DNA of 64,000 nucleotides, taken from IMG/VR virus record IMGVR_UViG_3300009068_004979; one strand, 5' to 3'. The notes below the pieces were generated by a model. The model did not search any database, was not told where the DNA came from, and saw only the letters and a program-made list of their open reading frames with translations. Made by a program: the position numbers and the translations under genes. The stretch comes from a virus. Shown here in pieces: positions 3,264 through 61,382 of this stretch (positions within the stretch are counted from its first letter, which is position 1; each line of letters opens with the position of its first letter).

Positions 3264-3746
3264 TTAGTTGTTAAAGTTGAATCCTGAATTACTTAATGTG
3301 CCAGCAAGTTGAAAACTAGCGTTATTATTGAGTGTTGGTACTGAAAATCTAAGATTAATAATATACTGCGCATTATCTGGATCTGCAATAACTTCCACAT
3401 TTAATCCTGCAATTCGAGGCTCAAAAACTGTAGTGTTATTGTAAATCATGTTACCAATATCCTGAGCTGTTGTTTCATTTACTTCTTCAAAAATATACTG
3501 AACTAGGTTTAAACCAAACACAGGATTAAGAATCTTCTGACCTGGAATAGTAGTAAACAAATTGTAAAGTGAGTTTCTTATACAGGCATAATCATAATCT
3601 TCCTTTAAATCTCTTATTTCTCTTTTTCTAAGCAGTTCGTTATTAATAGTATAATCAAATTCTAAATCTAACTTTAAATCCTGATAAGTGTAAGTGCTTA
3701 CTGCGACTACAGGTTGTGCTACAGACTGTATTTTAATAGATGCCAC
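3264..3746 (-). CDS. Baseplate wedge subunit, gp25-like
   Basis: IRNSLYNLFTTIPGQKILNPVFG...FEPRI; start moved to GTG 3746, 5 nt after a TAAATA box. Confidence 0.85.
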   Translation of the reverse strand: MASIKIQSVAQPVVAVSTYTYQDLKLDLEFDYTINNELLRKREIRDLKEDYDYACIRNSLYNLFTTIPGQKILNPVFGLNLVQYIFEEVNETTAQDIGNMIYNNTTVFEPRIAGLNVEVIADPDNAQYIINLRFSVPTLNNNASFQLAGTLSNSGFNFNN

Positions 3747-3816
3747 AAAAGTATTTATTTGCAGTTTGTATTTCAAAAACTGTTTTATTTAATACTTTAA
3801 AGCATAAATAATTTAA

Positions 3817-4416
3817 ATGAAGAGAAAATTTACTGTTCTAGTAGAAAACATCACAAGACATGTACATGGCGGATTCCTTGCTGGTGATGTAGTTAAATTT
3901 AAGAAGAATGCATTTAGTCATCGTTTCTTTAAAGAATGCCCTGCAGAATGTGCAGAACAAGCTAAGAAACTCATTGAAAGTGGCGTAAATTTAAGAGCCA
4001 AGAACATTAAAACACTCATGCCTGCAGTTATGGGTGCTGGTAACACTGATAACAATGGGTACAGTTTTTCTGTTGAAGTAACACCTGAAATTGCACCTGG
4101 AAGATATGATATCAATCAGTCTCTCACAGTTCCGCATGATACTCTAGAAAGAGTGGACTATTATCCAAGCTTACCTGAAGTGCCTGAGAAGTTTAAAAGA
4201 GACAACAAGACACAGATCAAGCCAACTGAAGTAAAGGATGAAGCAGAAGAAGTACCTTTTTATTCACCTTTTCGCACCCGTACTTCCGATGCAGGTCATA
4301 AGCAAATTGCCGGAGATCGCACATTGTTGAATCAGAACACAAAGATCCCTGCATCGCCTGCTGAAGGTCAGAAAGACCCAGCTCAATATACAGCTAGATA
4401 TCTTCCTAAGCAGTAA
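3817..4416 (+). CDS. Late hypothetical protein (putative head-associated)
   Basis: 199 aa; TAAATA 3805-3810; N-terminus MKRKFTVLVE. Confidence 0.75.
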   Translation: MKRKFTVLVENITRHVHGGFLAGDVVKFKKNAFSHRFFKECPAECAEQAKKLIESGVNLRAKNIKTLMPAVMGAGNTDNNGYSFSVEVTPEIAPGRYDINQSLTVPHDTLERVDYYPSLPEVPEKFKRDNKTQIKPTEVKDEAEEVPFYSPFRTRTSDAGHKQIAGDRTLLNQNTKIPASPAEGQKDPAQYTARYLPKQ

Positions 4417-5344
4417 GCTTAGAATCTGCTAAAGCCAATAAGCAGCTGTAACAATTAATTTCATTATCCACAACAAAACTACTTCTGTAGATATATTCTG
4501 ATAACGTTAGCAGATAGTGCTTCTTAAAGTCTAAATTGGTTTCATTGCTATCAATAAAATTAAACAAATTGCGCATTAACGAAACATAGTCATTATTAAA
4601 AGCGCTCTCATTCTCTATAAGAGCTTTGCGCAATTGACCAATATTCTTTTTCTTTATTTCGTTGAAAATGAGTTCAAGAACTTTATCATTCTTTGTATCT
4701 TGCAGCTGCAATGCACCAGAAGATGAATACTTCTGCAGTTCATTGATACACATTCTAAGATCCGGGTATTTTGACTTGATGAATTCAAGTAATTTAGCTT
4801 TCTGATCTTCAGGTATTTCAACTTTTTCTGATTTAAGAACATGCACACAACGCTTCACAACACCTTCAATGGGTGGTGTGAGATCAATGCTCTGACATCT
4901 GCTCTGCAATGCAGGAATGACTCTGTATCTATAATTTGCAGTTAGAATGAAGCGAGTAATTTTAGCAAATTCTTCAATAGTGTTACGCAAAGCGCGTTGC
5001 GCTTCCATGCTAAGACCATCTGTTTCATCTAAAATAATAGCTTTAATTTTACCGTCAATGCTTAATGTTTGAGCAAAGCTTGTAACTTTGGTTCTTATGG
5101 TATCAATGCCATTCTCATCACTTGCGTTAATATACAAGTACTGGCATTCTAAGATATCATTAACAATAATTTTAGCTAATGATGTTTTACCTAGACCAGG
5201 TGTACCAACAAAGAGAAGGTTGGGTATTTCTTTCTTTGCTTTGAAAGAGTTAATATATGATAGATTTTTATCAGATATTACAAATTCTTCTAGCTTGCGC
5301 GGGCGATATTTTTCCACCCAGAGATTATTGAAGTTGTAACTCAT
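4406..5344 (-). CDS. Clamp loader ATPase, gp44/RFC-small-like
   Basis: LWVEKYRP, GTPGLGKT, INASDENGID, ILDE, SRC motifs. Confidence 0.95.
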   Translation of the reverse strand: MSYNFNNLWVEKYRPRKLEEFVISDKNLSYINSFKAKKEIPNLLFVGTPGLGKTSLAKIIVNDILECQYLYINASDENGIDTIRTKVTSFAQTLSIDGKIKAIILDETDGLSMEAQRALRNTIEEFAKITRFILTANYRYRVIPALQSRCQSIDLTPPIEGVVKRCVHVLKSEKVEIPEDQKAKLLEFIKSKYPDLRMCINELQKYSSSGALQLQDTKNDKVLELIFNEIKKKNIGQLRKALIENESAFNNDYVSLMRNLFNFIDSNETNLDFKKHYLLTLSEYIYRSSFVVDNEINCYSCLLALADSKLTA

Positions 5345-5805
5345 TATTTACCAGAAGAACCAAAGCCCTTGTCACCACGATCTGTAGCTTCAACAGTACC
5401 CCATTCAATCTGCATACCTAAGTTAAAGTACACAACAAACTGAGCAATTCTATCGCCCGCTTTTATACCATAATCAGTATCAGTTAAATTGTATAATTTT
5501 ATACCTGCATCACCACGATAGCCGCTGTCAATAATGCCCGGGTGAGCTGTAATGCCGTGCTTGAATCCCAATCCGCTTCGAGATTCAACTTTAATCCAAT
5601 ACCCTTCTGGAATATAAGCAAATTTTAAGCCAACACCCACAACAGCACTACCACGAGCCGGTATCAGTTTATCTTCAATACTATACACATCATATCCTGT
5701 GTCTGATTCATGATTTTTTGATGGTAATTTAGCTAAATCATGTGTTTTCTCAAACTTTAATACAGGCATATACTGCATATTTGGATCTATATCACTATTA
5801 CTCAT
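5344..5805 (-). CDS. dut: Trimeric dUTPase
   Basis: GYD, SRSGL, GIIDSGYRG, GDRIAQ, RGDKGFGSSG (motifs I-V). Confidence 0.95.
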   Translation of the reverse strand: MSNSDIDPNMQYMPVLKFEKTHDLAKLPSKNHESDTGYDVYSIEDKLIPARGSAVVGVGLKFAYIPEGYWIKVESRSGLGFKHGITAHPGIIDSGYRGDAGIKLYNLTDTDYGIKAGDRIAQFVVYFNLGMQIEWGTVEATDRGDKGFGSSGK

Positions 5806-5858
5806 AATATGATTCTATTATATGTTTGAATAAAATCAATATCTACTAAATAATTCTA

Positions 5859-11333: not shown

Positions 11334-11343
11334 ATATTAATAT

Positions 11344-13563
11344 TTATACAGTCATGTAAATACCACGGCTTGCATCAGCTCGGAAGTCTGTATTGCCTTT
11401 GCTGGATTCGTTAAACACCATGGTATTTGGTTGATTATTGACCAATACACTTGAAGCTGCTTCTTTATCTTTGATATCTTCAAGGTGATCATTGCCTTGC
11501 TTGACAGCATCTACTTGTTCTTTGGCAGCTTTAAGTAGTTGTTTAAAATCATCTCGTACGCCTGTCATGGTTTTACTCATTTCGCTTACATCCATGGAAT
11601 TTAAAATCTTATTCAATTCTGCAGCATCTTGAACATCTTTTAATTTGCTTTTGACTAATGCATTCACACCTGCTGCAGCAGCATCTGTTACTGCACCTGT
11701 CAAAGCAGAGCCAGCACCTAGTCCACTTAAAAACCCAGTAATTTTGCTTAATTTATCCAGATCTTTAATTGTTGTGAGACTTTCTATTCCTTCTCTTACT
11801 AGCATCATTTGATCTTTGAATTGCTTTCCTACTTGTTTTGTAGAAATTTCAACAAATGTATCATTCATGCCTCGAACAACGCCTGGTAATTTTTCAATTT
11901 TATCTACTCTATCAGCCATGTCTATAATGGATTGAATGTAATCCTTTTTACCTGTCATTATACCGAGAGCACCGCTTATGCCACCTACTATTCCTGAAAC
12001 TGCTTGCCCTGCAGAGCCAGCTAGTAATGCTACAGAAAGTTCAGCCATGGCGGGAATAATTTTTGCAAAAGAATTTAAATCTAGCTTATCTACTGCAGGT
12101 CCTAATTTTTCAAAACCAGTCGCGAGTGAAGTTAGCCCATCGCCAAACATTTTTATGTTATATGCTAGACCAGCAAGAAGTGCTTCTGTTGCTCCAGCTG
12201 CTAGAGCTGCAGTTCCACCTGTTGCATATACTGCAGCACTGCCTGTAATAAGTAGTGCAAAGAAGCCGCCCAAGATACCGACAGCTTTGCCAAACCCTTC
12301 TGTATTGGTTGCTCGGGTCAAATCTTCTATGCCTTTACCAAGGGCGGTAAGAGCTGGTCCAAAGCTTTCTATAATTTTAGGCAGGAAATAAGCAGCTGCA
12401 AAAACTGCAGCAATACTTGCAGCTGCTTTTAAATCAAAAGATTTTGCTAGTTGCTCCATTATGAAAATAAACCCTGCTCCTGCAGCTCCACCGCCAATTA
12501 TAACACTAAACCCTTTAATAATGGCATTCGTATCCATGCTACCAAACTCTTGTAAAGCTTTACGAAATTGATTGATGGCTACAGCTAGACCAACAAGAAC
12601 AAGAGCGGTTTTAGCAAGTGGTAGCTGTTTGATAAATCCTGCAATTGTGTCGCCTGTTTTCTTTAATAAATAAAAAAATACTTCAACTCCAACTGCACCT
12701 GCTGCTATAGCAGCAAGGGTACCAAAAAAATCTTGTACCTGTTTATCAAAGCTTTCAGCAAAAAATGCTTTAAATTTTTCTGTGAGTATGCTAATAAACC
12801 CACCCAAAGCAGCTCCAAGTGCAGGTAAATTTTTAAGTAGCATATCAAATAATACCGGTAATTGTTTTATTGCTGTATCTACAGAATCCATTATCCTATC
12901 AAAAAATGGAAAAAGTGAATCTTTCATTGCTTTGAGTATGGGTGGTAGCTGACTGCCCACTACTGGAAGAGCGCTTATTACAAAATCTTGAATAAGAGGA
13001 ATTACTGTTTTTGCAAAGTCAGTAATCTTATCAAAGTTTTGAATTAAAGAAAGTATTATTGCAATGCCACCACCTATCATGAGTAAAGTTTTCAAGCCAC
13101 CGAATAAGCCACCTAGACCAGCTAAACCTTGAAAAATACTTCCAAATATGCCAGGTTTGTCTTGTTTCTTATCTGTTTTTAGAATCTTTTCTAATAAATC
13201 ATTGGTTCTTTTATTGGATAGAACTTTAGCTAAATTATTGACAACTTCTTTTGAAACAGATTCTAACTGTACTTTAATTGTTTGTCTTTTAAAAATATTT
13301 TTTAATGTGTTATTTGCGTTTTTCTTTTCATCGTCTTCTGCACCCATGGTTTTATTAAAGGTTTTTGCATAAATTTTAGCAATTTCTTCTGTGCGTTTTT
13401 TTTCTGCTGAAGTAAGTTTATTCTGTGCTGCAGTTTTTTTATCTTTTTTAGTTTGATCTGCTTTATTATCAATTAGTTCTTCATTTGCGTCTGCAATTTC
13501 TTTGAGAGACGCAGAGATAGTATTGAGCTTATCTAAAAAATTCTGAAACTGTGTTTCATCCAT
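11344..13563 (-). CDS. Tape measure protein
   Basis: 739 aa, Ala/Gly-rich amphipathic helices with a hydrophobic middle, C-terminal VLVNNQPNTMVF; position in tail operon. Confidence 0.75.
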   Translation of the reverse strand: MDETQFQNFLDKLNTISASLKEIADANEELIDNKADQTKKDKKTAAQNKLTSAEKKRTEEIAKIYAKTFNKTMGAEDDEKKNANNTLKNIFKRQTIKVQLESVSKEVVNNLAKVLSNKRTNDLLEKILKTDKKQDKPGIFGSIFQGLAGLGGLFGGLKTLLMIGGGIAIILSLIQNFDKITDFAKTVIPLIQDFVISALPVVGSQLPPILKAMKDSLFPFFDRIMDSVDTAIKQLPVLFDMLLKNLPALGAALGGFISILTEKFKAFFAESFDKQVQDFFGTLAAIAAGAVGVEVFFYLLKKTGDTIAGFIKQLPLAKTALVLVGLAVAINQFRKALQEFGSMDTNAIIKGFSVIIGGGAAGAGFIFIMEQLAKSFDLKAAASIAAVFAAAYFLPKIIESFGPALTALGKGIEDLTRATNTEGFGKAVGILGGFFALLITGSAAVYATGGTAALAAGATEALLAGLAYNIKMFGDGLTSLATGFEKLGPAVDKLDLNSFAKIIPAMAELSVALLAGSAGQAVSGIVGGISGALGIMTGKKDYIQSIIDMADRVDKIEKLPGVVRGMNDTFVEISTKQVGKQFKDQMMLVREGIESLTTIKDLDKLSKITGFLSGLGAGSALTGAVTDAAAAGVNALVKSKLKDVQDAAELNKILNSMDVSEMSKTMTGVRDDFKQLLKAAKEQVDAVKQGNDHLEDIKDKEAASSVLVNNQPNTMVFNESSKGNTDFRADASRGIYMTV

Positions 13564-16162: not shown

Positions 16163-16189
16163 TTAAATATTTAGAGCAAGTTGCTTATT

Positions 16190-16743: not shown

Positions 16744-16749
16744 TATTTA
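16744..16749 (-). promoter_or_regulatory. Late promoter of tail tube
   Basis: TAAATA 5 nt before ATG. Confidence 0.75.
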
Positions 16750-19055: not shown

Positions 19056-19061
19056 TATTTA
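19056..19061 (-). promoter_or_regulatory. Late promoter of tail sheath
   Basis: TAAATA 6 nt before ATG. Confidence 0.75.
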
Positions 19062-19729: not shown

Positions 19730-21436
19730 TTAATTTATTCTTTTCCACCCTTGTGACTCTAGATCTTCTATCTCAGAAAATTCTTTTTCACCATTACCAG
19801 AGAATACAATAGGTGGTGGTATGAAGCCCTCTTTGTTCTTCTCATTACTGTAAATTGAAGCTGGGTTAACAAAATATTTGATGCCATAGTCAAGTGGTTT
19901 GAGTTTAAGTGGTTTTTTATTATCATCAACTTCTACAATTTCAAAATACTTCTCTGTGAGCTCATTTTCTAAGATCATAAGCGTCCATACTAAACTCATG
20001 ACACGATCATCCCAACTATCAGCACCAGATTTTGCAGACCATGTACCATTGGGATGACGAACAAACCCTTTGAGTTCAATGAGTGTATTAATATCCCTAA
20101 TCTTTACAGATCTGAGTTCGTTGACCCAGTACCGCATGTTCATTACACCTTTGTATTTTGTGTTGGTGTGAGCTTGTACACCAATCTTTTTATAATCAGT
20201 ACCTGCAATCTTAGGCCCGTAACTCACCAGATTTTCATAGCCAAGAGTGTGTCGCAACTGGTCTACTACTTGTGCGCCACAATTATTTCTTTCAACTAGT
20301 GCTGGTGGTGAACCCCAATGTTGAAGAATTTCATGTAGCTTGGTTGTAAAATTGTATGGGCTAATGTTTCTATTGTGATATACTGCCACTTGTTTGATGT
20401 TGCGTAAATCTGTTATATCGAGAATTTGAGCTACGCTAGCAGCTTCGCCGACGCCTTCACTAATATCTACACCAACCACATACAAATTTTCTTTTTGCGG
20501 TTCTTCCCACATGAGGTAATGGCCGTCTTCGAAAATAAAATTTGGTTCAGTACATTCAGTTTTCAATTCTTCAAAAAGCTTTTCATCAACGGCGCTTTCG
20601 CCAGACTGTAGGAACACATTACCATACTCTTGATCAAATGCTTCGCGACTGCCCATGGATCGTATGGTGTGTTCTTTCCATTCTTCGTCACGACCGGGAA
20701 CTTCCCACCAATCAACTTTTTCTGCTTTCCAGCCATTGGTACCTTCTGTTGCTCCTGAATATAGTGTATGAAATAAATTACCAGTTCCATTGGGTGTACT
20801 GGCAACAAAGATTTTACTTCTCTTGGAGCTTGAAATAATTGGATATACTGATTTCCAAAATTCTTCAACCAGGTGGTTGTCAATAAAGGCCAACTCATCC
20901 AATATGAGAACATTGCAACTATCGCCTCGGCCTGCGTCACTACTGGTTGTAGATATGCCTATGCTACTTCCATTGCCTAGCACCATGGCAGTCTTTCCAT
21001 ATTCAACAGCACCTGGTTTCAAGTAGTTGGGCAATTGTTCGTACGCAAGCCTGATACGTTTGAATATATTAATTGCTGTCTGCTCTTTGTTGGCAACAAC
21101 AAGTATTCTCTGGTCTTCATAAAAACATGCAATCCACAGGGCATAGATTGTCATGAGAGTTGTTTTGCCTATTTGTCTTGATGCCAGACAAACAATAAAT
21201 CTACTGTCTCTCAAGCTTCTAAGAATTTTCTTTTGATAGCCATGCAATGCTATCTTCTCCTTGCCACGATCTAAGTTTATAATGTAGAAAAAATTCTCTG
21301 CAAAGTATAATATGTTCTTTCTGCACTTAGCTATATCTTTAACCCACTCTGGGTGCTCTGCATAATCAAAAGTAGCATCTGGCCGAGGCAGACTAGTGTT
21401 TCCTAAATAAAATTGATTCTCTTGTTTTTTAGGCAT
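19730..21436 (-). CDS. terL: Terminase large subunit gp17
   Basis: SRQIGKTT Walker A, LILDE Walker B, STPNG, FDQEY, GVDIS, DDRVMS. Confidence 0.97.
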   Translation of the reverse strand: MPKKQENQFYLGNTSLPRPDATFDYAEHPEWVKDIAKCRKNILYFAENFFYIINLDRGKEKIALHGYQKKILRSLRDSRFIVCLASRQIGKTTLMTIYALWIACFYEDQRILVVANKEQTAINIFKRIRLAYEQLPNYLKPGAVEYGKTAMVLGNGSSIGISTTSSDAGRGDSCNVLILDELAFIDNHLVEEFWKSVYPIISSSKRSKIFVASTPNGTGNLFHTLYSGATEGTNGWKAEKVDWWEVPGRDEEWKEHTIRSMGSREAFDQEYGNVFLQSGESAVDEKLFEELKTECTEPNFIFEDGHYLMWEEPQKENLYVVGVDISEGVGEAASVAQILDITDLRNIKQVAVYHNRNISPYNFTTKLHEILQHWGSPPALVERNNCGAQVVDQLRHTLGYENLVSYGPKIAGTDYKKIGVQAHTNTKYKGVMNMRYWVNELRSVKIRDINTLIELKGFVRHPNGTWSAKSGADSWDDRVMSLVWTLMILENELTEKYFEIVEVDDNKKPLKLKPLDYGIKYFVNPASIYSNEKNKEGFIPPPIVFSGNGEKEFSEIEDLESQGWKRIN

Positions 21437-21442
21437 ATATTG

Positions 21443-21454
21443 TATAAATACTTA
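21443..21454. promoter_or_regulatory. Overlapping divergent late promoters (TATAAATA on +, TAAGTA on -)
   Basis: TATAAATACTTA lies in the 20-bp gap between terminase and ORF 21457; the T4 gp55 consensus is TATAAATA. Confidence 0.75.
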
Positions 21455-21456
21455 AG

Positions 21457-22401
21457 ATGAACAACACAAGAACGCTAGTAGAGATGGGTGATTTCTATGA
21501 AAAGAATATCATCGAGGAGAAGAAATCAGTATTCCCTCCCAAGGGTACTTTTGAGTTAGCCACGGCTAAGAAAGCTGGTCCTGGTGAAGCTAAAAAAGAT
21601 CCTTTTGTTGATACCAAGGGTTCTGGTCCATGTGCTGAAGGCAATGGATTTGATGAGAAAAAGCTACTTGATCCAAAGAAAACAAAAGGTAAAGATTTTC
21701 CTCAGACAGCTAAATTTTCTGCTGATACTGTAAATATTACAAAGACTCTTGAAAAAACAGAATCAGAAACAATAAATAATTTTATGAGCAAATCTATATT
21801 TGATAAACTATATGAAGAAGTGATGGGGGGTCACGAAGATGAGGCCGACGCAGCAGCCCTCGGATTACCTGCTGAAGTTGGAACACCTGAAGGTGAAAAA
21901 GAAGAAGAAAAGAGTTTAAAAACCATTCTTGCTGATGCTATTGCATCATTGCAGAAGGTACATGATGCTCTTCCTGCTGATCTAGAATCAGAAGAGAAGG
22001 GTGGTGAAGAAGCTTCTGACGAAGAAGGTTCCGATGAAGATGCTGAACAAGCATTTGCTCCTTCTGAAGACGCCGAAGCCAAAGCTAAGAAGGATGAAGA
22101 AGAAGATGAAGAAGCCAATGAAGCAACTGAAATGAAAGAAGTTCCTGCTTCAGCTGGTGAAGGTCTTGCAAAAGTTGGTGGCGCAGCCAATCAAGTTGGT
22201 GACGAAACAAAAAAGCTCGTCTCCAAGGGTGGCGGCGATGGTAAGATCAAAGATGGTATCGATGCTAAAGGTGAAGATAAAGGTCATTCTTTAGTTGGTG
22301 CCGGTGTTAAGGGTGGTGCTCCTACATCAGTTAAAGGTAAAGCTAATGTAGTTAACTCCAAGACATCCAAAGTTGGTGCTTATCTAGCTGGTCTAAAATA
22401 A
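21457..22401 (+). CDS. Acidic low-complexity late protein, probable prohead core/internal protein
   Basis: 314 aa, E/K/G-rich; TATAAATA 21443-21450; followed by a strong terminator. Confidence 0.7.
   Translation: MNNTRTLVEMGDFYEKNIIEEKKSVFPPKGTFELATAKKAGPGEAKKDPFVDTKGSGPCAEGNGFDEKKLLDPKKTKGKDFPQTAKFSADTVNITKTLEKTESETINNFMSKSIFDKLYEEVMGGHEDEADAAALGLPAEVGTPEGEKEEEKSLKTILADAIASLQKVHDALPADLESEEKGGEEASDEEGSDEDAEQAFAPSEDAEAKAKKDEEEDEEANEATEMKEVPASAGEGLAKVGGAANQVGDETKKLVSKGGGDGKIKDGIDAKGEDKGHSLVGAGVKGGAPTSVKGKANVVNSKTSKVGAYLAGLK
21773..21778 (+). promoter_or_regulatory. Internal late promoter for in-frame ATG 21784
   Basis: ATAAATA-ATTTT-ATG, the same spacing as the other late promoters. Confidence 0.6.
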
Positions 22402-22462: not shown

Positions 22463-22476
22463 GCTTAAATAATATT

Positions 22477-24961: not shown

Positions 24962-24989
24962 ATTATACGAGATTTTTCTACTTAATCAA
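24962..24989 (-). promoter_or_regulatory. Early/middle promoter of the 24955 operon
   Basis: TTGATT-N16-TATAAT-N6-ATG. Confidence 0.75.
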
Positions 24990-25362: not shown

Positions 25363-25395
25363 TGAATTATTTAATCTAATGTAATAAATAATAGT

Positions 25396-27040: not shown

Positions 27041-27070
27041 ACTAGTATTTACTCTGATAGTTTGTTTATT

Positions 27071-42014: not shown

Positions 42015-42042
42015 TTAGTTAGTATAATGGAAGAAATAAAAA

Positions 42043-43257
42043 TTACAACCCATTAATAGCATTCAGTAGCTTTCTATCTGAATGGCCATATGGAAGTGTA
42101 TATAACTCAACATATTTGTTAATGTTATCTTCATTCTCAAGCCAACGACTCTCGGCAACTTTTCTTGCTTTAGCACAAGTATTCATATATTTGCCTTTCT
42201 TAGCAAGTGTTGTTTCTATTTGATCTACCATTTCATCACCTGTTTTAAATTTGATTGGTGCATCTTGATATGTAACCATGTCCTGGCAAGCAATAGGAAG
42301 ACCATAGCTACAAGCTTCAATGTATTTTAGATCACTCTTTGCACGATTAAACACATTGTCCTGCAGAGGAGCTACCATCATATTAACGTTGAGGTTATGA
42401 ATTTTTTCTGGGTAATTATAGAGTGACGACCAGGGGTGAAACTCAAAAGTTTTGTTATGTATATAAGACTGCAATGGTAGCGGGAATGCACCTAAGAATA
42501 CCCACTGAAACTTGTCTTTTGTCTTAATAATTGTTTCACATACATGTTCGAAGTCATCTTTTTGACCGACTCTATTATCAACATCAAAGTGTGCTCCTGA
42601 TCCTGCATAAAGAATGCGAGGTTTTTTCTCGTACCGATCATAATTTTCAGATATGCGCTTCTCGTTATAAAACTGGCCCATCCACCACTTCGGAGGATAA
42701 TTAGGAATTACCGTCACATTTCTGTTGCCCGTTTTATCGGCATAGTAATCTTTCATGTAATCACATGTGACAGTAACTTCATCACATAGTGACATAATTT
42801 CTTGTGCACATCTTCTAATCTCTGGATCAGTAAATGCTGGTTTGAATTTATTATACTCAGGAATATCTTCACTAAACATAATATCGTCAATTTCAAAAAT
42901 AATTCTAAACCCAAGCTGTTTGCTAAGCTCTTTAAGAAATTGTACAAACTTGAGCTGGTGTGGTGTAGCTTGTCTTTGTATTCTCACTGCTTGTATGCCA
43001 CGAAAATAATTGGCATCGAAACACATTACTGTACTGCCGTGTACAACCATCTTTTGGTGAGCATTGAGAAGATGTTCAGGCCAAATCATTCTCCAGAAAC
43101 CACAACCTGAGAAATCTGCATAATAATTTAATGCTCTTTTGAGGGATAATTCTGGTGGAGCGGGTACTGATGGCTGCGCTGGTACAATCTGCGACTGTAA
43201 GCCAAATGGTGTAGGAAACGGACTGGCAAAAGGGCTTACAAAGGGAGAGGGATGCAT
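42043..43257 (-). CDS. Glycosyltransferase, GT-B-like
   Basis: SGCGFWRMIWP, EIDD, VIPN, APLQDNVFNRAKSDLKYIE. Confidence 0.85.
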   Translation of the reverse strand: MHPSPFVSPFASPFPTPFGLQSQIVPAQPSVPAPPELSLKRALNYYADFSGCGFWRMIWPEHLLNAHQKMVVHGSTVMCFDANYFRGIQAVRIQRQATPHQLKFVQFLKELSKQLGFRIIFEIDDIMFSEDIPEYNKFKPAFTDPEIRRCAQEIMSLCDEVTVTCDYMKDYYADKTGNRNVTVIPNYPPKWWMGQFYNEKRISENYDRYEKKPRILYAGSGAHFDVDNRVGQKDDFEHVCETIIKTKDKFQWVFLGAFPLPLQSYIHNKTFEFHPWSSLYNYPEKIHNLNVNMMVAPLQDNVFNRAKSDLKYIEACSYGLPIACQDMVTYQDAPIKFKTGDEMVDQIETTLAKKGKYMNTCAKARKVAESRWLENEDNINKYVELYTLPYGHSDRKLLNAINGL

Positions 43258-45081: not shown

Positions 45082-46139
45082 CTACACTTTTTATAGAGTT
45101 CAGTACAGTACTCTATAACCTCTTTTTTATTCTGTATATCTAAAATGTTTATAAATTCTTCTATTGCTTTATTGATGTCAACACCTGATAAGTCGCAGTC
45201 TTGATCATCATTTACTGTAATATTATCATTATAGAGTGAATAGTCTACAGATAAAGAAAATGGATTATGTAAGGAAAGTTTTTTAAGAAGAATGTCAATA
45301 TTATCACTTGTAATTTTCTTGTCTACAATTAGCTTAACAATGTTGCTATTAAAAATGTCTTGTGCATCGTTACCGCTGAGACTTTTAAGCTGTGTTAAAT
45401 CTGTGAGTGTTACTTTTTTGTGTTTAGGTGAATTCTTGTTCTCATAAAATTCATAAGAGGAATTATTTAGATCAAGAATATAATAGCCTTTAGTTGAGCC
45501 AGTATCACCGAAATCCATTTCAAATGGGTTACCTACATAAACAATAGTTCCCTTGTCATACTTGCGTTCGTCTCTTAAGTGAAAGTGACCTGTAAGGATA
45601 AGTGGTGCTTTATTGAGCAAATCTTTTGTCTTCATGCCATGGTCACAAAGCTTGAAGGAGTTCATCTTGAAGCTTTCAATTTCTAGATGACCGAAGATAA
45701 TATCAGCTTTTTGAATATCCGCAACCTCTGCACCCCATGGCAAGAAGGCACAATTTTTTCCAAATAGTTTAGTATCTGTAGCTGTGCTTATAATAGTAAT
45801 ATTTTTCCAGCCATTTAAAATAGAAAGTGAGTTAATATCAGATCTATCTTTATAGAAAGCATCATGATTACCTACAATAATAACAATATTAAAGCTACTC
45901 CAGAGTTTTAATATTTCATTAACTACATGAATTGTGTTAACAGCAATTTCATCTCTATAATGATACAAATCACCGAGAATAAAGATATCTTGAATACCTT
46001 TTTGCTCTAAATCCTGTTTTAACCAGGCAGCCCATTTGAGGGTTGTCTCATGCCAAAATATACTGTTCTGATGAATGCCTATATGCAAATCAGCAATACA
46101 GCATATTTTTGGCTGTCTTACTGCTATTTCTTTAATCAC
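45078..46139 (-). CDS. Recombination nuclease gp47 (SbcD/Mre11-like)
   Basis: DLHIG, LGD, GNHD, GHLE, GHFH. Confidence 0.95.
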   Translation of the reverse strand: MIKEIAVRQPKICCIADLHIGIHQNSIFWHETTLKWAAWLKQDLEQKGIQDIFILGDLYHYRDEIAVNTIHVVNEILKLWSSFNIVIIVGNHDAFYKDRSDINSLSILNGWKNITIISTATDTKLFGKNCAFLPWGAEVADIQKADIIFGHLEIESFKMNSFKLCDHGMKTKDLLNKAPLILTGHFHLRDERKYDKGTIVYVGNPFEMDFGDTGSTKGYYILDLNNSSYEFYENKNSPKHKKVTLTDLTQLKSLSGNDAQDIFNSNIVKLIVDKKITSDNIDILLKKLSLHNPFSLSVDYSLYNDNITVNDDQDCDLSGVDINKAIEEFINILDIQNKKEVIEYCTELYKKCR

Positions 46140-46744
46140 TAATCCTCCTGATTATAATTTTCGTCGAGTGGTTCAATGTAAATGTAGCAATTGCCGTCTT
46201 CGTCTTTTTTGGCCATAGTTTCTGTATAAACCTTTTCCTTATACTCTGTGAGTGCCTGGTGGTGTTTTTTCTCTTTTTTAATTCTATTAATAAAAGCATG
46301 AAATGCAATTGTAGTAAAATATGAGAATGGACTGAATCCTGAATCGAGTCTAAATTTTTTATTGCGTAATGCGGAGAACATCTTAACAATTGCATCTCCG
46401 ATCATGTCATCTTTATAGGAGTAATTAATAAAATTAGGGGCGTATGATAATCCGTTAGCGATCTTAGTTAGACTTTCACCGAGCTTTTCAGAAATTTTAC
46501 CTGTATTGTAGTATACGCGTATTTCTTCCTCAAACTCACGGCTATTGACATAATGAACTTTATCGCGAGGTCTGATCTTCTTCTTTGGTGCTTCTGTTGC
46601 ATCCAGAGTAGGTACCGGCGGAACTGTCTCTACAGCTACTTCTTTATCCTCTTTGCGTGTGTGTGGCTTGCTCACACTTTTTGGAGATTCAGCTTTAGCT
46701 TTCTTTAATTTCTTTAATCGCGAAGTTGATGTTTTCTTTTTCAT
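46139..46744 (-). CDS. Late-transcription sigma factor gp55
   Basis: HYVN, IANGLSYAPNFINYSYKDDMIGDA, PFSYFTTIAFHAFINRIKKEK. Confidence 0.93.
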   Translation of the reverse strand: MKKKTSTSRLKKLKKAKAESPKSVSKPHTRKEDKEVAVETVPPVPTLDATEAPKKKIRPRDKVHYVNSREFEEEIRVYYNTGKISEKLGESLTKIANGLSYAPNFINYSYKDDMIGDAIVKMFSALRNKKFRLDSGFSPFSYFTTIAFHAFINRIKKEKKHHQALTEYKEKVYTETMAKKDEDGNCYIYIEPLDENYNQED

Positions 46745-48550: not shown

Positions 48551-48586
48551 TAACTTAAATAATAATATAAAGATACATAAAATCAA

Positions 48587-49877: not shown

Positions 49878-49895
49878 AGGACTAAATATAAATGT

Positions 49896-50330
49896 ATGAA
49901 CTTCAATGATAAAGTTAATAGTATATATAAGGTATTTTTAGAACAAGAACCTCCAAAGGATGCAACAGAACCGCAGGTTCCAGATGCATCAGCTATACCT
50001 GAGCCAGCAGCTGCTGCACAACCAAAAACCCAGGTGCCACCTGAAGGTTACGTGGATATAGTGAGACTTCTTGCCAAAGCACTTGTGATGGATATTCCTG
50101 CAGGGACGATAGATGATTTATTTACATTGCCTGTTACTGCAGAAAATGCAGAAGAAGTCCGTGAAGGTCTAGAGAAAGCTATTAAACAAAATGAAATGTA
50201 TGCAGATAATCCAGAAAAATTAGATAATGTACATTTTAAAAAGTTTGTTTCTTCTATTAATGAGAATAACTTCATGCAGCGCTACAAGAATATTCTTGCT
50301 ATTATGAAGAAATATAGCAATTCAATTTAA
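49896..50330 (+). CDS. Late hypothetical protein
   Basis: 144 aa; TAAATA 49883-49888; ...YKVFLEQE. Confidence 0.72.
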   Translation: MNFNDKVNSIYKVFLEQEPPKDATEPQVPDASAIPEPAAAAQPKTQVPPEGYVDIVRLLAKALVMDIPAGTIDDLFTLPVTAENAEEVREGLEKAIKQNEMYADNPEKLDNVHFKKFVSSINENNFMQRYKNILAIMKKYSNSI

Positions 50331-50333
50331 ACC

Positions 50334-51779: not shown

Positions 51780-52990
51780 ACTCCTTTAAATATTTTTATT
51801 TCTTAACTGAAGGCGGTGCTGCCGGGCATATGCTTCATCCTTTTGATTTACCACAGGTTACAAATGGTAATGCTTTGATCAAAGTTTATAAGCAGACAGA
51901 GGCAAGCGTAAGGGAAAAACCAGCAGCAGTAAAAATTGATGGCTTGAATGCATCAATTAAGCTAATCACTAATGCTGATGGCAGTAAGGAATTTGCTCTT
52001 GATCGTGGCTCAAACAAGCAAGAAGATATACAGGGTGTGACGCTAGCCACGTTATCAAACCGGTTTCCACAAGGTCATGGAATGCTCGCAGTAGGTACTG
52101 ATGTTCTGTCAATTTTTAATAAAGCTCTTCCGACAATAACAAATGAACTAAAACGGTTAAAAATGCTTGATAATAGTAGCATACTTTTTAATATGGAATA
52201 TGTTAAGGGTAATACAAACGTTATAGGTTATAAGGATAATTTCTTAGCTATTCACGGTCTAAATGAGATTTATCAGGTGACTAGTCCAATTAAGAAATCA
52301 GTAAGCAGGGCATCAAGAGAAATTTCTTATGATAAGAAGGCGTTATCAGATTTAATAGAAAAGGTAAATAAAATAGCAAGGAGTTTTGACTTTAATGTTG
52401 TGGGTGAAATAGCGGCTACATTAACTCATAATATAAGCTTTGATTCAGAGTTAAATTCAGAATTTGCAGTAAAATATAATGCTGAACATGTTGAAGTGAA
52501 GACATTGCGTACCTGGTTACAAAAAGCAAAAAATCCGAAAGGTGTAACAATCGCTCTTTCTAGTGGAAAGCGTGTAGATGCGCTTTCAAAGCAAATTTAT
52601 TTAGCTGTGCTAGAGGGTCAAGAGCTCGACTCTTTGATAAAAGATAGAGATCAAACAGGTATAAAGAATGCCATTGATGGCGCGGTAATCTACCATGCAA
52701 CACGTTTAATGGGTCAGAAGCTTCTCTCCTCCATGAAATCGCCTCTTGGTGATATAGAGACGCAAGAAGGTATTGTTATACGTGATCCTAAGATTTCTTC
52801 TGTTCCTTTTAAAATCACCGGTGAGTTTATAGTGCGCGGATTACAGAGCAAATTTAAAAAGAATGAACAAGAGGAAGGACCATTAACGAGAAGTACGCTG
52901 AATAACGTTAATTATATTAATACACCGCCTTATGAATATGAGGGCAGCAATTTGCGCTCAACACCGGGATTCAATATAAACCCAACATGA
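51776..52990 (+). CDS. ATP-dependent ligase-like nucleotidyltransferase (RNA-ligase fold)
   Basis: Motif I KIDG, III FNMEY, IV EGIVIR, V FKITG; N-terminal EGGAAGHMLHPFD. Confidence 0.7.
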   Translation: MNSFKYFYFLTEGGAAGHMLHPFDLPQVTNGNALIKVYKQTEASVREKPAAVKIDGLNASIKLITNADGSKEFALDRGSNKQEDIQGVTLATLSNRFPQGHGMLAVGTDVLSIFNKALPTITNELKRLKMLDNSSILFNMEYVKGNTNVIGYKDNFLAIHGLNEIYQVTSPIKKSVSRASREISYDKKALSDLIEKVNKIARSFDFNVVGEIAATLTHNISFDSELNSEFAVKYNAEHVEVKTLRTWLQKAKNPKGVTIALSSGKRVDALSKQIYLAVLEGQELDSLIKDRDQTGIKNAIDGAVIYHATRLMGQKLLSSMKSPLGDIETQEGIVIRDPKISSVPFKITGEFIVRGLQSKFKKNEQEEGPLTRSTLNNVNYINTPPYEYEGSNLRSTPGFNINPT

Positions 52991-53535
52991 AGTTTAAGTT
53001 TGACATTCTAGTAGAACAGCTTCTTGGTGAGAAGAAAGAACGCATAGCTCTCTTACCGGGTGGGTTTAAGCCACCACATAAGGGCCATTTTAAAGCATTA
53101 AGTTATATCTTGCAAGATGCAGATCGTGGCATTGTTTATATTGGAAATAAGGAAAGGGATGGTGTAACGGCTGAACAGGCAAAGCAAATTTGGGAAATAT
53201 ATAAAAAGTATTTACCAAAGCCTATTGATATAGAAATTACAAAAATTACACCAGTAAAATCGGTCTATGATTTTGTCGATAGTAATCTAGATAAACCTGT
53301 TATTGTTGGAGCTTCAGGTGATGAGGATTTAAAGCGTTTTGAATATTTTAAGAAACATGCAGAAAAATATCCGTTAGTTACTGTTGTCAATATACCACCT
53401 CAGTATAATAGAATTTCAGGTACTGAAGCAAGAAAGAAAATTATAGGAAAAGAATCAGACGCCGTAGAGTATTTTGTACCTGAAATATCTGATCAAGATT
53501 TACTTAAGATAAAGAATATACTTCTTATTTCTTAG
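52987..53535 (+). CDS. HIGH-superfamily nucleotidyltransferase (cytidyltransferase-like)
   Basis: PGGFKPPHKGH (HxGH) and ISGTEAR (SxT). Confidence 0.85.
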   Translation: MKFKFDILVEQLLGEKKERIALLPGGFKPPHKGHFKALSYILQDADRGIVYIGNKERDGVTAEQAKQIWEIYKKYLPKPIDIEITKITPVKSVYDFVDSNLDKPVIVGASGDEDLKRFEYFKKHAEKYPLVTVVNIPPQYNRISGTEARKKIIGKESDAVEYFVPEISDQDLLKIKNILLIS

Positions 53536-54295: not shown

Positions 54296-54338
54296 ATGTT
54301 ATATTAATATTTAGTCTTATGGCACATAAATATTTTAT

Positions 54339-54626: not shown

Positions 54627-54640
54627 CCTTAAATAATAAT

Positions 54641-55712: not shown

Positions 55713-55740
55713 ATTATAATATATGTTTTACGTAGTTCAA
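55713..55740 (-). promoter_or_regulatory. Early/middle promoter of folE
   Basis: TTGAAC-N16-TATAAT-N8-ATG. Confidence 0.75.
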
Positions 55741-55753
55741 CATAAATAATAGT

Positions 55754-58642: not shown

Positions 58643-58670
58643 TTGACTAGCTACAAATATACTTTATAAT
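58643..58670 (+). promoter_or_regulatory. Early/middle promoter of queE
   Basis: TTGACT-N16-TATAAT-N6-ATG. Confidence 0.8.
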
Positions 58671-59655: not shown

Positions 59656-59692
59656 TTGTTGCAAATATTCCATAAACCATTAAAATAGTATA

Positions 59693-60430
59693 ATGAGAAT
59701 TGCCATATGTGGAAGTGCTTGCCAAGGTAAAACTACTCTTGTTAACGATTTTATAAAAGCCTGGCCTAATTATAAAAAATCTGCAGAATCATACCGGGAG
59801 GCAATAAAGAAAGAAAATCTCAAGATTAACAAAGAGATCAACAAAGACAGTCAATGGAAAATTTTAAATTGTCTTATTGATGATGTTCAGAAGACAAACA
59901 AGAACGACTATGTAATTTTTGATCGGTGTCCAATTGATAATCTTGTATATTCTCTCTGGAGTTTTGAGAAACAAACATCAGATATTGATAGAGAATTTAT
60001 TGACAAATGCATTCCACTAGTTCGTGAAAGCATGAAGTTTATTGATATTATCTTCTTTGTACCCATTACAAAAGTTGCCCCGGTGCAGATTGAACCAAAA
60101 GATAATCGAGAGATTGATAAAGAATTTATAGAAGAAACAGATAATATTTTTAAGGCTATTGAATATAGCCTGATGAACAAAGGAACCTGCCCCTTCTTCA
60201 ATGATGATGATAGACCACCAATCATTGAAGTGTTTGGTTCACCAGAGCAAAGAATAGAAATTATTAAGCTATATGTTAATAAGGACGGGGATGTTGTTGA
60301 TGACGGGAGTAGTGTTTTGAGCACAGAAAATATTGATATGATGGAAAAGCTTCTCAGAGAACAAAGAGAAGCCGGTTATCAAGAGAAAATCGAACAAAAA
60401 TTAAAAAATAAAATCATCCTTGGTGAATAA
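59693..60430 (+). CDS. P-loop nucleotide kinase (dNMP kinase/NadR-like)
   Basis: GSACQGKTTL, FDRCPIDNLVYS. Confidence 0.8.
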   Translation: MRIAICGSACQGKTTLVNDFIKAWPNYKKSAESYREAIKKENLKINKEINKDSQWKILNCLIDDVQKTNKNDYVIFDRCPIDNLVYSLWSFEKQTSDIDREFIDKCIPLVRESMKFIDIIFFVPITKVAPVQIEPKDNREIDKEFIEETDNIFKAIEYSLMNKGTCPFFNDDDRPPIIEVFGSPEQRIEIIKLYVNKDGDVVDDGSSVLSTENIDMMEKLLREQREAGYQEKIEQKLKNKIILGE

Positions 60431-60438
60431 ATATTTTG

Positions 60439-60654
60439 GTGAGCGATTTCACTAAAAACTACGAGAGTATCCTTGAGAATTATGGTTGCATAAAAACAAC
60501 ACGTAGAGAATTTTATCCAAAAAATTTCAACCTTTCAGAAGACTTTGTCAATTCCTTTAAGAAAGAATACAAAAGACTAGTAGGCGAGGGTGTACACCCA
60601 CGCAGAGCTTTGCAGCGCATTAACAAAGCGCTATTGTTTCACGCAAGAGATTAA
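60439..60654 (+). CDS. Small late hypothetical protein
   Basis: GTG start 5 nt after TAAATA 60428-60433; MSDFTKNYESILE. Confidence 0.65.
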   Translation: MSDFTKNYESILENYGCIKTTRREFYPKNFNLSEDFVNSFKKEYKRLVGEGVHPRRALQRINKALLFHARD

Positions 60655-61349
60655 TAGGTATATAGCATTCTCCAATAAACATTGGATGTTGTTACAACAC
60701 CAGCTACATTTATTGTAAAGTTTAGCGCCTGGCCCACCTGTGTAATAGAGCTCACATAAGGTGCACCAGAAAGACTCACATCAGCTGCTACTGTAAAATG
60801 TGAAGGCTTGATAACTGTTGCATTTCCTATGTCTGGGTAGTTTGTAAAAAAGCTTCCGATGCTGATAGTCTGCGGTGTATTATTGGAGAATTGTGTTGCA
60901 CTATATAGATCAATTATTCTCTTATAGACTGTGCTTTGATATGCTGTAACAGCAGGAACAAATATTTGTGTTATAGATGTATAATCAGGCGAACCTGATA
61001 ACACATATGAGGCACTTGTCACAAGCCCGTTTACTACAGAAAAAAAGTTATTATATGTTGGAGTAGGAGCTAGTGATGTTGTAGTGCCCTGTACACCATT
61101 AGAGAAGAATGCTGCTCCAGATATAGATTGTGAGTTTAATGATGTTATTGTAAAACCATTGCCTGTCAAATCGCCTGTAACAGTAGCATTACCAGCTATA
61201 TCTGCACGCACAACATTAAAATTCTGAAAAGGAATAGTCTGTGTTCCATTCTGTGTCTGCAGAATAACGAGATCTCCATCTACTGCTTCTTGAGCTTGCG
61301 GAAGATTGCCGATATTTACGTAGATGCTATTTGATTTATTAATGGCCAT
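60651..61349 (-). CDS. Late structural (fibre/baseplate-like) protein
   Basis: INIGNLP-like N-terminus (IGNLPQAQEAVDGDLVILQT), T/S/N-rich beta content; TATAAATA upstream. Confidence 0.65.
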   Translation of the reverse strand: MAINKSNSIYVNIGNLPQAQEAVDGDLVILQTQNGTQTIPFQNFNVVRADIAGNATVTGDLTGNGFTITSLNSQSISGAAFFSNGVQGTTTSLAPTPTYNNFFSVVNGLVTSASYVLSGSPDYTSITQIFVPAVTAYQSTVYKRIIDLYSATQFSNNTPQTISIGSFFTNYPDIGNATVIKPSHFTVAADVSLSGAPYVSSITQVGQALNFTINVAGVVTTSNVYWRMLYTY

Positions 61350-61382
61350 CGTTAATATTTATATTATAATATAGTATTATAT

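What the first reader, a model, noticed from the sequence alone, without database searches (positions are those of the whole stretch)
3746..61361. Late regulon: TAAATA box fixed 5-7 nt before start codons, implying leaderless late mRNAs
Seen: on + strand, TAAATA precedes starts at 3817 (6 nt gap), 5859 (6), 21457 (6), 22477 (5), 25396 (5), 36256 (7), 49896 (7), 54339 (6), 54641 (5), 55754 (5) and 60439 (5). On - strand it precedes 3746 (5), 11333 (7), 16162 (5), 16738 (5), 19049 (6), 25362 (5), 27040 (5) and 61349 (6). Variants are TAAGTA before phoH, terminase and tape measure, and TAAATT before 19726. None has room for a Shine-Dalgarno. Established: T4 gp55 recognises TATAAATA, and the window encodes gp55. 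Inference: transcription starts at or within a few nt of the AUG, so even the most abundant structural proteins come from leaderless mRNAs, unlike T4.
Basis: partly seen in the sequence, partly recalled or inferred. Interest (0 to 1): 0.72.

Follow-up and report, generated by a model that had tools for sequence, protein, structure and literature searches.

The report
Phage promoters fused to start codons
In this uncultured freshwater T4-like phage, both the late-gene promoter box (TAAATA) and ordinary early promoters sit 5-8 bases before start codons and no ribosome-binding sites are used. Its messages therefore most likely begin on the AUG/GUG itself, unlike T4, but no RNA 5' end has been mapped.

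Summary
All 19 listed TAAATA sites are at the stated coordinates and gaps, and I found two more (21784, 29515).

- **Enrichment:** 21 of 76 TAAATA copies end 5-7 nt before an ORF start, against about 2.6% for 12 permuted control hexamers.
- **Depletion:** the hexamer is under-represented overall. Inside genes it is avoided on both strands, which points to a DNA-level signal.
- **Gene class:** L-class genes with an identifiable function are virion genes (baseplate wedge, two tail tubes, sheath). gp55 is encoded at 46139-46744.
- **Second class:** TTGatt-N16/17-TAnnnT ends 6-9 nt before about 14 replication and nucleotide-metabolism genes.
- **Remaining genes:** genes with no box almost all overlap or abut the upstream stop codon. 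SD-like words are at chance level.
- **Relatives:** both layouts are conserved while flanking sequence diverges.
- **Comparators:** T4 and P-SSM2 show 12-44 nt leaders with SD. Pelagibacter phage HTVC008M is mixed.

Best reading, confidence about 0.75: gp55-type late promoters and sigma70-type early promoters place +1 on or within 2 nt of the start codon. This gives a leaderless, SD-free programme with coupled downstream genes. No 5' end is mapped, because the lake metatranscriptomes were available only as contigs.

I found no paper describing this. This scan has reported the same layout on other phage genomes. I class it as a new variant of known kinds.

The parts
3752..3757 (-). TAAATA box, 5 nt before GTG 3746 (baseplate wedge, 3264-3746)
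3805..3810 (+). TAAATA box, 6 nt before ATG 3817
5847..5852 (+). TAAATA box, 6 nt before ATG 5859
11341..11346 (-). TAAATA box, 7 nt before ATG 11333
16168..16173 (-). TAAATA box, 5 nt before GTG 16162
16744..16749 (-). TAAATA box, 5 nt before ATG 16738 (tail tube paralog, 16190-16738)
19056..19061 (-). TAAATA box, 6 nt before ATG 19049 (tail sheath, 16764-19049). Box, spacer and ATG are near-invariant in 62 of 73 relatives examined. The start codon is confirmed by the N-terminal SPGV motif and an in-frame TAA inside the box.
19732..19737 (-). Variant box TAAATT, 5 nt before ATG 19726 (second tail tube paralog)
21445..21450 (+). TAAATA box, 6 nt before ATG 21457 (314-aa unknown; best-covered gene in two lake RNA libraries)
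21773..21778 (+). TAAATA box, 5 nt before an in-frame internal ATG at 21784 in the same gene (would give a 205-aa product)
22466..22471 (+). TAAATA box, 5 nt before GTG 22477, directly after a terminator-like hairpin plus T-run
25368..25390 (.). Two back-to-back TAAATA boxes in a 33-bp divergent spacer: 25368-25373 (minus strand, to GTG 25362) and 25385-25390 (plus strand, to ATG 25396), both gap 5
27046..27051 (-). TAAATA box, 5 nt before ATG 27040
29522..29527 (-). TAAATA box, 6 nt before the second ATG (29515) of ORF 29177-29518. Orthologous boxes in relatives support 29515 as the start.
36243..36248 (+). TAAATA box, 7 nt before ATG 36256
49883..49888 (+). TAAATA box, 7 nt before ATG 49896 (head of a 4-gene coupled operon, 49896-53535)
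54327..54332 (+). TAAATA box, 6 nt before ATG 54339
54630..54635 (+). TAAATA box, 5 nt before ATG 54641
55743..55748 (+). TAAATA box, 5 nt before ATG 55754
60428..60433 (+). TAAATA box, 5 nt before GTG 60439
61356..61361 (-). TAAATA box, 6 nt before ATG 61349
46139..46744 (-). gp55-type late sigma factor, the presumed reader of the TAAATA box
   Evidence: phrog_234, E 2.6e-26; 34-39% identity to HTVC008M and P-SSM2 gp55
29873..30604 (-). Candidate gp45-like sliding clamp (weak similarity only), headed by an early-type promoter at 30612-30639
58643..58670 (+). Early-type promoter TTGACT-N16-TATAAT, 6 nt before ATG 58677 (QueE)
59659..59686 (+). Early-type promoter TTGCAA-N16-TAAAAT, 6 nt before ATG 59693 (thymidylate kinase)
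62195..62222 (+). Early-type promoter TTGATT-N16-TACAAT, 6 nt before ATG 62229
55713..55740 (-). Early-type promoter TTGAAC-N16-TATAAT, 8 nt before ATG 55704 (GTP cyclohydrolase)
38949..38976 (-). Early-type promoter TTGATT-N16-TATCAT, 6 nt before ATG 38942 (UvsX)
34822..34849 (-). Early-type promoter TTGATT-N16-TACTAT, 7 nt before ATG 34814 (gp41-like helicase)
31952..31979 (-). Early-type promoter TTGAAC-N16-TATTAT, 7 nt before ATG 31944 (gp32 SSB). The orthologous promoter is conserved in a relative.
24962..24989 (-). Early-type promoter TTGATT-N16-TATAAT, 6 nt before ATG 24955
5812..5839 (-). Early-type promoter TTGATT-N16-TAGAAT, 6 nt before ATG 5805 (dUTPase)
42021..42048 (-). Early-type promoter TTGTAA-N16-TATACT, 6 nt before GTG 42014 (gp43 DNA polymerase)
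32646..32852 (-). Phage-encoded ribosomal protein bS21 homolog. It sits in this SD-free genome; a role in the expression programme is possible but untested.
   Evidence: a 99%-identical protein carries PF01165

Best explanation
TAAATA is the core of a T4-family late promoter, read by host RNA polymerase carrying the phage gp55 sigma. In T4 the box TATAAATA occupies -13 to -6, so transcription starts 6 nt after its last A. Here the box ends 5 nt (11 sites), 6 nt (7) or 7 nt (3) before ATG/GTG. The late mRNAs should therefore begin on the A/G of the start codon or 1-2 nt before it. They would be leaderless and translated without a Shine-Dalgarno, presumably by direct 70S or 5'-AUG recognition.

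The same geometry holds for a second, sigma70-type class (TTGatt-N16/17-TAnnnT ending 6-9 nt before the ATG) that heads replication and nucleotide-metabolism genes. Genes without either box are read by termination-reinitiation coupling, with stop/start overlaps of -4, -1 or gaps of 0-4 nt.

Shown directly: the motifs, their spacing, their enrichment and depletion, their conservation, the split by gene class, and the presence of gp55. Inferred: who reads the box, where the RNA starts, and how it is translated.
For: 1. **Enrichment against a depleted background.** 21 of 76 copies lie at gap 5-7, against about 2.6% for permuted hexamers.
2. **Avoidance on both strands inside genes.** Against synonymous-codon shuffles, sense is 22 observed vs 48 expected (z -4.7) and antisense 25 vs 44 (z -3.3). 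Five control hexamers show no such two-strand depletion. This is expected for a DNA signal and not for an mRNA signal.
3. **Gene class.** L-class genes with a recognisable function are baseplate wedge, two tail tubes and sheath. E-class genes are dUTPase, gp32, gp41, UvsX, gp43, FolE, QueE and Tmk.
4. **Reader present.** gp55 is encoded in the window.
5. **An independent promoter type shows the same fusion.** Of 127 TTGnnn-N16/17-TAnnWT sites, 16 lie 6-9 nt before an ORF start, about 14 of them real gene starts. With wrong spacers the count at gap 5-9 is 0-4 of 107-131.
6. **Operon logic.** 17 of 20 genes at divergent junctions carry a box. Box-less genes nearly all overlap or abut the upstream stop.
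7. **Conservation, late class.** The sheath box, 6-nt spacer and ATG are near-invariant in 62 of 73 relatives (51-97% protein identity) while flanks vary. In 595 kb of relatives, 224 + 108 of 1181 boxes sit at gap 5/6. 40% of 499 unique ORF upstreams carry the box at gap 5-7.
8. **Conservation, early class.** The gp45-like and gp32 promoters keep their hexamers and ATG distance while the spacer sequence is replaced.
9. **Start codon is right.** The sheath start is fixed by the N-terminal SPGV motif shared with T4, P-SSM2 and HTVC008M, and by an in-frame TAA inside the box.
10. **Start codon type.** Starts are ATG (16) or GTG (5), never TTG, so the predicted +1 is a purine.
11. **Precedent.** A -10 box 6-7 bp before the ORF is experimentally shown to give leaderless mRNA in Deinococcus (PMC12340547). 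The T4 box position is from PMC2988020.
Against: No transcript 5' end has been mapped. Two lake metatranscriptome runs contain contigs for the sheath, the tube and gene 21457-22401. They are assemblies whose ends follow strain variation, and one RNA contig of a relative runs through a box-ATG junction, which could be read-through or DNA carry-over.

gp33 was not found. The gp45 candidate is weak (24% identity; no Pfam clamp match in two relatives).

The host is unknown, so its ability to translate leaderless mRNA at high level is assumed.

Sites with gap 6-7 imply 1-2 nt leaders or a shifted start. The TAAGTA variants at gap 10-12 do not fit a strictly leaderless model.
Confidence: 0.75

Rival explanations
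1. TAAATA acts on the mRNA as an AT-rich, non-SD translation enhancer. It would lie inside a longer leader transcribed from promoters further upstream and be bound by S1 or by ribosomes carrying the phage bS21. It would not be a promoter.
For: The genome uses no SD and encodes bS21. AT-rich upstream regions help initiation in SD-poor bacteria (general knowledge). One RNA contig of a relative spans a box-ATG junction.
Against: - The box is avoided on the antisense strand of genes as well.
- It is absent from about 28 coupled internal genes, which also need translation.
- It is restricted to one functional gene class, while early genes carry a -35/-10 pair at the same distance.
- Divergent spacers of 20-33 bp leave no room for another promoter.
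- The sequence equals the gp55 box, and the gap equals the T4 distance from box to +1.
Confidence: 0.08
2. The boxes are promoters fused to start codons, so the mRNAs are still leaderless. But they are read by the host primary sigma, or by another phage factor, as a -10-only promoter rather than by gp55.
For: TAAATA is AT-rich and resembles a -10 element. -10-only promoters drive leaderless genes in Deinococcus (PMC12340547). An earlier scan note reports the same box in small phages that lack gp55 (e1-5326346, not tested here).
Against: The invariant final A replaces the most conserved T of a sigma70 -10 hexamer. A distinct sigma70-type class with its own -35 exists in the same genome and serves different genes. 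gp55 is present with a conserved core. The box matches the late-promoter variants of the T4 family (PMC2988020).
Confidence: 0.12
3. It is a compositional or annotation artefact: AT-rich intergenic DNA and wrongly called starts create the apparent spacing.
For: The genome is 35% GC, and the ORF starts were called mechanically.
Against: Same-composition hexamers give about 2.6% against 28%. Spacing is conserved over hundreds of kb of relatives. The sheath start is verified by conserved N-terminal residues. T4 and P-SSM2, with the same GC content, show no peak at gap 5-7.
Confidence: 0.01

Closest known systems
Bacteriophage T4 late transcription (TATAAATA at -13 to -6; gp55 sigma, gp33 co-activator, gp45 clamp; PMC2988020)
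   Same: Same core box, with no conserved -35. A gp55 homolog is encoded. The box controls virion genes. Boxes also occur between co-directional late genes.
   Different: In T4 and cyanophage P-SSM2 the box lies 12-44 nt before the ATG, with an SD in between. Here it lies 5-7 nt before the start and there is no SD. Only TAAATA is invariant, with A at -12 in 14/21 sites and a T two bases after the box in 20/21. gp33 was not found and the gp45 candidate is weak.
Pelagibacter phage HTVC008M (cultured pelagimyophage)
   Same: About a dozen annotated genes start 4-6 nt (mostly 5) after TAAATA(G). They include head closure, tail tube cap, baseplate wedge, tape measure and tail completion. It also encodes bS21 and gp55.
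   Different: HTVC008M keeps SD-bearing leaders for sheath, tube, portal and major head protein, with a T4-style box 31 nt before portal. The window phage uses the fused layout even for sheath and tube and has no SD at all. The two are only about 30% identical in gp43. The published attempt to predict late promoters in pelagimyophages failed (PMC7029224).
Leaderless genes with a -10 box adjacent to the ORF in Deinococcus-Thermus (PMC12340547); by recollection also Actinobacteria and Thermus phage phiYS40 middle/late genes
   Same: A -10-type element 6-7 bp before the start codon, no SD, and ATG/GTG starts. The early class here has the same geometry.
   Different: Here the phenomenon is in a T4-like phage and involves two promoter classes. 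One of them is specific for a phage sigma. The early class retains a clear -35 (TTGatt). Essentially every promoter-proximal gene follows the rule, rather than about a third.

Membership tests
T4-type gp55-dependent late promoter | AT-rich -10-type box (TATAAATA or a family variant) with no -35 element | tested here: met
   TAAATA is invariant at 21 sites. A precedes it in 14/21. Positions further upstream show no conservation.
T4-type gp55-dependent late promoter | Cognate late sigma gp55 encoded by the phage | tested here: met
   46139-46744 (minus strand): phrog_234, E 2.6e-26. The core is conserved with HTVC008M and P-SSM2 gp55.
T4-type gp55-dependent late promoter | Co-activator gp33 | tested here: inconclusive
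   None of the ORFs scanned with PHROGs or Pfam, which included most small ones, matched a gp33 family. Some small ORFs and the rest of the genome were not scanned.
T4-type gp55-dependent late promoter | Sliding clamp gp45 as activator | tested here: inconclusive
   29873-30604 is 24% identical over 142 aa to the HTVC008M processivity factor (E 1e-6 pairwise) and is syntenic with gp32. There was no Pfam clamp match.
T4-type gp55-dependent late promoter | Heads virion (late) genes | tested here: met
   Baseplate wedge, two tail tubes and sheath are L-class. Most other L-class products have no known family.
T4-type gp55-dependent late promoter | Transcription starts 6 nt after the last A of the box | not testable with these tools
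   Only assembled RNA contigs were available.
T4-type gp55-dependent late promoter | Transcribed leader carrying an SD between box and start codon (T4 and cyanophage layout) | tested here: not met
   The gap is 5-7 nt here, against 12-44 nt in T4 and P-SSM2. SD-like words are at chance level.
Leaderless genes with an ORF-adjacent -10 box | -10-type element ending about 5-8 nt before the start codon, with no SD | tested here: met
   21 late-type sites and about 14 sigma70-type sites.
Leaderless genes with an ORF-adjacent -10 box | mRNA 5' end on or within about 2 nt of the start codon | not testable with these tools
   No raw RNA reads were available. Read laying gave contigs only.
Non-SD mRNA translation enhancer (AT-rich upstream element) | Present before genes regardless of operon position or temporal class | tested here: not met
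   It is absent from about 28 coupled internal genes. Early genes carry a different element.
Non-SD mRNA translation enhancer (AT-rich upstream element) | Selection acts only on the transcribed (sense) strand | tested here: not met
   Antisense-strand depletion inside CDS: 25 observed vs 44 expected, z -3.3.

The most novel reading that the evidence does not exclude
A whole, widespread clade of freshwater T4-like phages has given up Shine-Dalgarno-led translation entirely. Every transcription unit, early (host sigma70) and late (gp55), would start on its own start codon. All internal genes would be read by stop/start coupling. The phage-encoded bS21 would help tune host ribosomes to this leaderless programme. 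That would make high-level virion protein synthesis from leaderless mRNAs a normal bacterial-virus strategy, and would give gp55 promoters a second role as the determinant of the translation start.
Probability: 0.35. Interest if true: 0.8.

Novelty: new variant of a known kind. Interest (0 to 1): 0.62.

Why it matters
T4 late transcription and SD-led translation are textbook. A large environmental branch of the T4 family appears to fuse promoter and start codon, for early genes as well as for sheath and tube. If so, leaderless mRNAs can carry the heaviest protein-synthesis load of an infection.

This has three consequences.
- It changes how such genomes should be annotated. The box fixes the start codon, for example 29515 rather than 29518 and UvsY 48550 rather than 48586.
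- It may explain why late-promoter prediction failed in pelagimyophages (PMC7029224), since the boxes abut the start codons rather than sitting upstream of a leader.
- It gives a concrete, testable context for phage-encoded bS21.

HTVC008M and its Pelagibacter host offer a cultured system in which the prediction can be tested directly.

Tried and rejected
- **RNA evidence.** The look-up of sequencing runs found two lake metatranscriptome runs with small shares of the stretch. Read laying showed only short assembled contigs over sheath, tube and 21457-22401. Contig ends at 21792-21796 coincide with strain-variant branch points that are also seen in the DNA runs. Nothing can be said about 5' ends, and uncovered parts are not evidence.
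- **Host identification.** bS21 found no relative in genome contigs and only two metagenomic proteins. It is 24% identical to HTVC008M bS21. There are no tRNA genes in the window or in 21 related loci. The host remains unknown. A Bacteroidota host looks unlikely, because the early -10 boxes are TAnnnT and not, by recollection, the TAnnTTTG of that phylum.
- **Clamp and co-activator.** Pfam PF09116 found no clamp in two 157-kb relatives. No gp33 was recognised.
- **Function of L-class unknowns.** PHROGs and Pfam gave almost nothing.
- **Literature.** Searches for leaderless plus late promoter, gp55, cyanophage, Pelagibacter or HTVC008M RNA-seq found no description of this layout. Subscription journals are not covered.
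- **Sigma70 reading of the TAAATA box.** I considered and set this aside because of the invariant final A and the separate -35/-10 class.

Full report
**What the window is.** The window is 64 kb of a T4-like myophage at 35% GC. It encodes the following.
- Baseplate wedge, tail sheath, large terminase, gp43 DNA polymerase, gp46 and a gp41-like helicase.
- Two tail-tube paralogs.
- gp32, UvsX and dUTPase.
- UvsY, a helicase, QueC and a gp55-type late sigma at 46139-46744, minus strand (alignment).
- Deazaguanine-pathway genes and PhoH.

Its gp43 is only about 30% identical to any deposited phage, the best matches being cyanophages and Pelagibacter phage HTVC008M. The DNA is found in freshwater and lake metagenomes.

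**Check of the observation.**
- TAAATA is depleted overall: 76 copies against 116.9 +/- 10.5 expected.
- Yet 21 copies end 5 nt (11 sites), 6 nt (7) or 7 nt (3) before an ATG (16) or GTG (5) that opens an ORF of 60 aa or more.
- Twelve permuted hexamers of the same composition give 48/1845 = 2.6%. About 2 cases are expected and 21 are seen.
- Two sites are new. One is an in-frame internal ATG at 21784. The other is the second ATG (29515) of ORF 29177-29518.
- The extended consensus is a-TAAATA-n-T, with T in 20/21 sites two bases after the box. Nothing is conserved further upstream.
- The variant boxes exist, but three of them sit further away: phoH 7 nt, ORF 11344-13563 10 nt, terminase 12 nt.

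**A second fused promoter class.** Reading all upstream regions showed a sigma70-type pair, TTGatt-N16/17-TAnnnT. It ends 6-9 nt before the start codons of dUTPase, gp32, the gp41-like helicase, UvsX, gp43, FolE, QueE, Tmk, a glycosyltransferase, an amidotransferase and others.
- Of 127 TTGnnn-N16/17-TAnnWT sites, 16 lie at gap 6-9 from an ORF start.
- The same pattern with spacers of 11-14 or 20-23 gives 0-4 of 107-131 at gap 5-9.
- A -35 element at the correct distance has no translational explanation. This class is therefore independent evidence that promoters in this genome abut start codons.

**Operon logic.** Of 20 genes at divergent junctions, which must have their own promoter, 10 carry TAAATA at 5-7 nt, 4 carry the early pair and 3 carry a variant or more distant box. 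Genes with neither box are almost all co-directional and overlap or abut the upstream stop, at -4, -1 or 0 to +4 nt. SD-like 4-mers occur upstream of 6-10% of ORFs in this clade. I estimate by hand that base composition alone gives about 9%. The picture is promoter-fused first genes plus coupled followers, with no SD.

**DNA signal or RNA signal.** Against synonymous-codon shuffles of 70 CDS, TAAATA is depleted on the sense strand (22 vs 48.1 +/- 5.5) and also on the antisense strand (25 vs 43.9 +/- 5.7). Five control hexamers are not depleted on both strands. Avoidance on the strand that never enters the gene's mRNA fits a promoter and not a ribosome signal.

**Geometry.** PMC2988020 places the leading TA of the 8-bp T4 late box at -13/-12, which puts TATAAATA at -13 to -6. 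Five bases therefore separate the box from +1. A 5-nt gap puts +1 on the A/G of the start codon, and 6-7 nt gives a 1-2 nt leader. For sigma70 promoters a gap of 6-7 nt does the same. In Deinococcus a -10 box 6-7 bp before the ORF has been shown experimentally to act as the promoter of leaderless mRNAs (PMC12340547). All fused starts here are ATG or GTG, never TTG, so the predicted +1 is a purine.

**Start codons are right.** The sheath protein begins MARTIQSPGV. The SPG(V/I) motif sits at the same place in T4, P-SSM2 and HTVC008M gp18. An in-frame TAA lies inside the box, so the ORF can neither extend upstream nor start later.

**Conservation.**
- In 62 of 73 relatives for which the sheath start could be read (51-97% protein identity), the sequence ATAAATA-(6 nt)-ATG is kept almost letter for letter while the DNA further upstream changes.
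- Pooled over 595 kb of the 65-71% identity group, 224 and 108 of 1181 boxes lie at gaps 5 and 6.
- 40% of 499 unique upstream regions of ORFs of 100 aa or more carry the box at 5-7 nt.
- Early promoters of the gp45-like and gp32 genes in two 157-kb relatives keep TTGATT, the -10 hexamer and the 7-8 nt distance to ATG, while the spacer between them is completely different.
- More distant relatives (L063-67 from a 229-kb contig; L071-74 and L076) put a GGAG-type SD before the sheath gene and have 22-39% SD-like upstreams. They still show the box peak at 4-6 nt at other genes. The fully SD-free state is therefore clade-specific.

**Comparison with cultured phages.** Using the same ORF-based measure, the T4 late region and P-SSM2 show no peak at 5-7 nt, with box-to-ATG gaps spread over 12-44 nt. 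Their sheath, tube and capsid genes have SD-bearing leaders.

HTVC008M is intermediate. About a dozen annotated genes start 4-6 nt (mostly 5) after TAAATA(G), but sheath, tube, portal and major head protein keep SD leaders. The pelagimyophage survey states that late-promoter prediction was unsuccessful (PMC7029224). I found no paper describing promoter-fused, leaderless late genes in T4-like phages.

**RNA data.** Two lake metatranscriptome runs contain contigs for sheath, tube and gene 21457-22401, so these genes are probably transcribed in nature. They are assemblies, and their ends coincide with strain-variant branch points. One contig from a relative crosses a TATAAATA-N5-ATG junction, which could be read-through or DNA carry-over. 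No conclusion on 5' ends is possible.

**Machinery.** gp55 is present. A gp45 candidate (29873-30604) is only weakly supported. gp33 was not found. The host is unknown.

**Relation to earlier scan notes.** After I had found the HTVC008M parallel myself, a look-up showed that this scan has already reported the same 'late promoters fused to start codons' layout on several other uncultured T4-like phage genomes. Those are unchecked AI notes. My results agree with them independently.

**Verdict.** The most likely mechanism is leaderless transcription from gp55-type late promoters and sigma70-type early promoters, with coupled downstream genes (confidence about 0.75). It is a new variant of two known things, T4 late promoters and ORF-adjacent -10 boxes of leaderless genes. 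It remains unproven at the RNA level.

Noticed in passing
window 21773-21786 (inside gene 21457-22401): An in-frame internal TAAATA-N5-ATG at 21784 would give a 205-aa C-terminal product. In two lake RNA libraries a relative's contig shows a different upstream sequence ending in TATAAATA-ATTAC-ATGAGCAA that joins the window sequence at this point. The C-terminal part may therefore be a separately started gene or module.
   Followed up: partly
window 29515-29527; L085 and L086: The box geometry suggests the start of ORF 29177-29518 is the second ATG (29515, gap 6). Orthologs in two relatives have the box 6 nt before the corresponding ATG. This is a late-type promoter sitting inside the replication gene block.
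   Followed up: partly
window 48550-48586: The UvsY ORF was called mechanically from TTG 48586. An early-type promoter (TTGATT-N16-TATTAT) ends 8 nt before ATG 48550, so a 130-aa product from 48550 is more likely.
   Followed up: no
window 46580-46744: gp55 has a lysine-rich N-terminal extension of about 55 aa that is absent from the HTVC008M and P-SSM2 homologs. Its first 50 nt overlap the upstream helicase gene.
   Followed up: no
L063-L067 (229-kb contig), L071-L074 and L076: More distant relatives (52-55% sheath identity) put a GGAG-type SD before the sheath gene and have 22-39% SD-like upstreams, yet keep TAAATA 4-6 nt before other genes. They form a natural mixed state between T4 and the SD-free clade.
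   Followed up: partly
window 32646-32852: A phage bS21 homolog. A 99%-identical protein carries PF01165. It is very divergent (24% identical to HTVC008M bS21) and has no close relative in 185,579 species genomes by the pattern scan.
   Followed up: partly
window 16190-16738 and 19091-19726: Two tail-tube paralogs (both phrog_45) flank the sheath gene. One is headed by TAAATA and the other by TAAATT, both at gap 5.
   Followed up: no
window 19730-21456: The large terminase has no box at 5-7 nt. The 20-bp divergent spacer it shares with gene 21457 holds only that gene's TAAATA and a TAAGTA 12 nt before the terminase ATG. How terminase is expressed is unclear.
   Followed up: no
window 22432-22463: A GC-rich hairpin plus T-run (terminator-like) follows gene 21457-22401 and is immediately followed by the next TAAATA box.
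   Followed up: no
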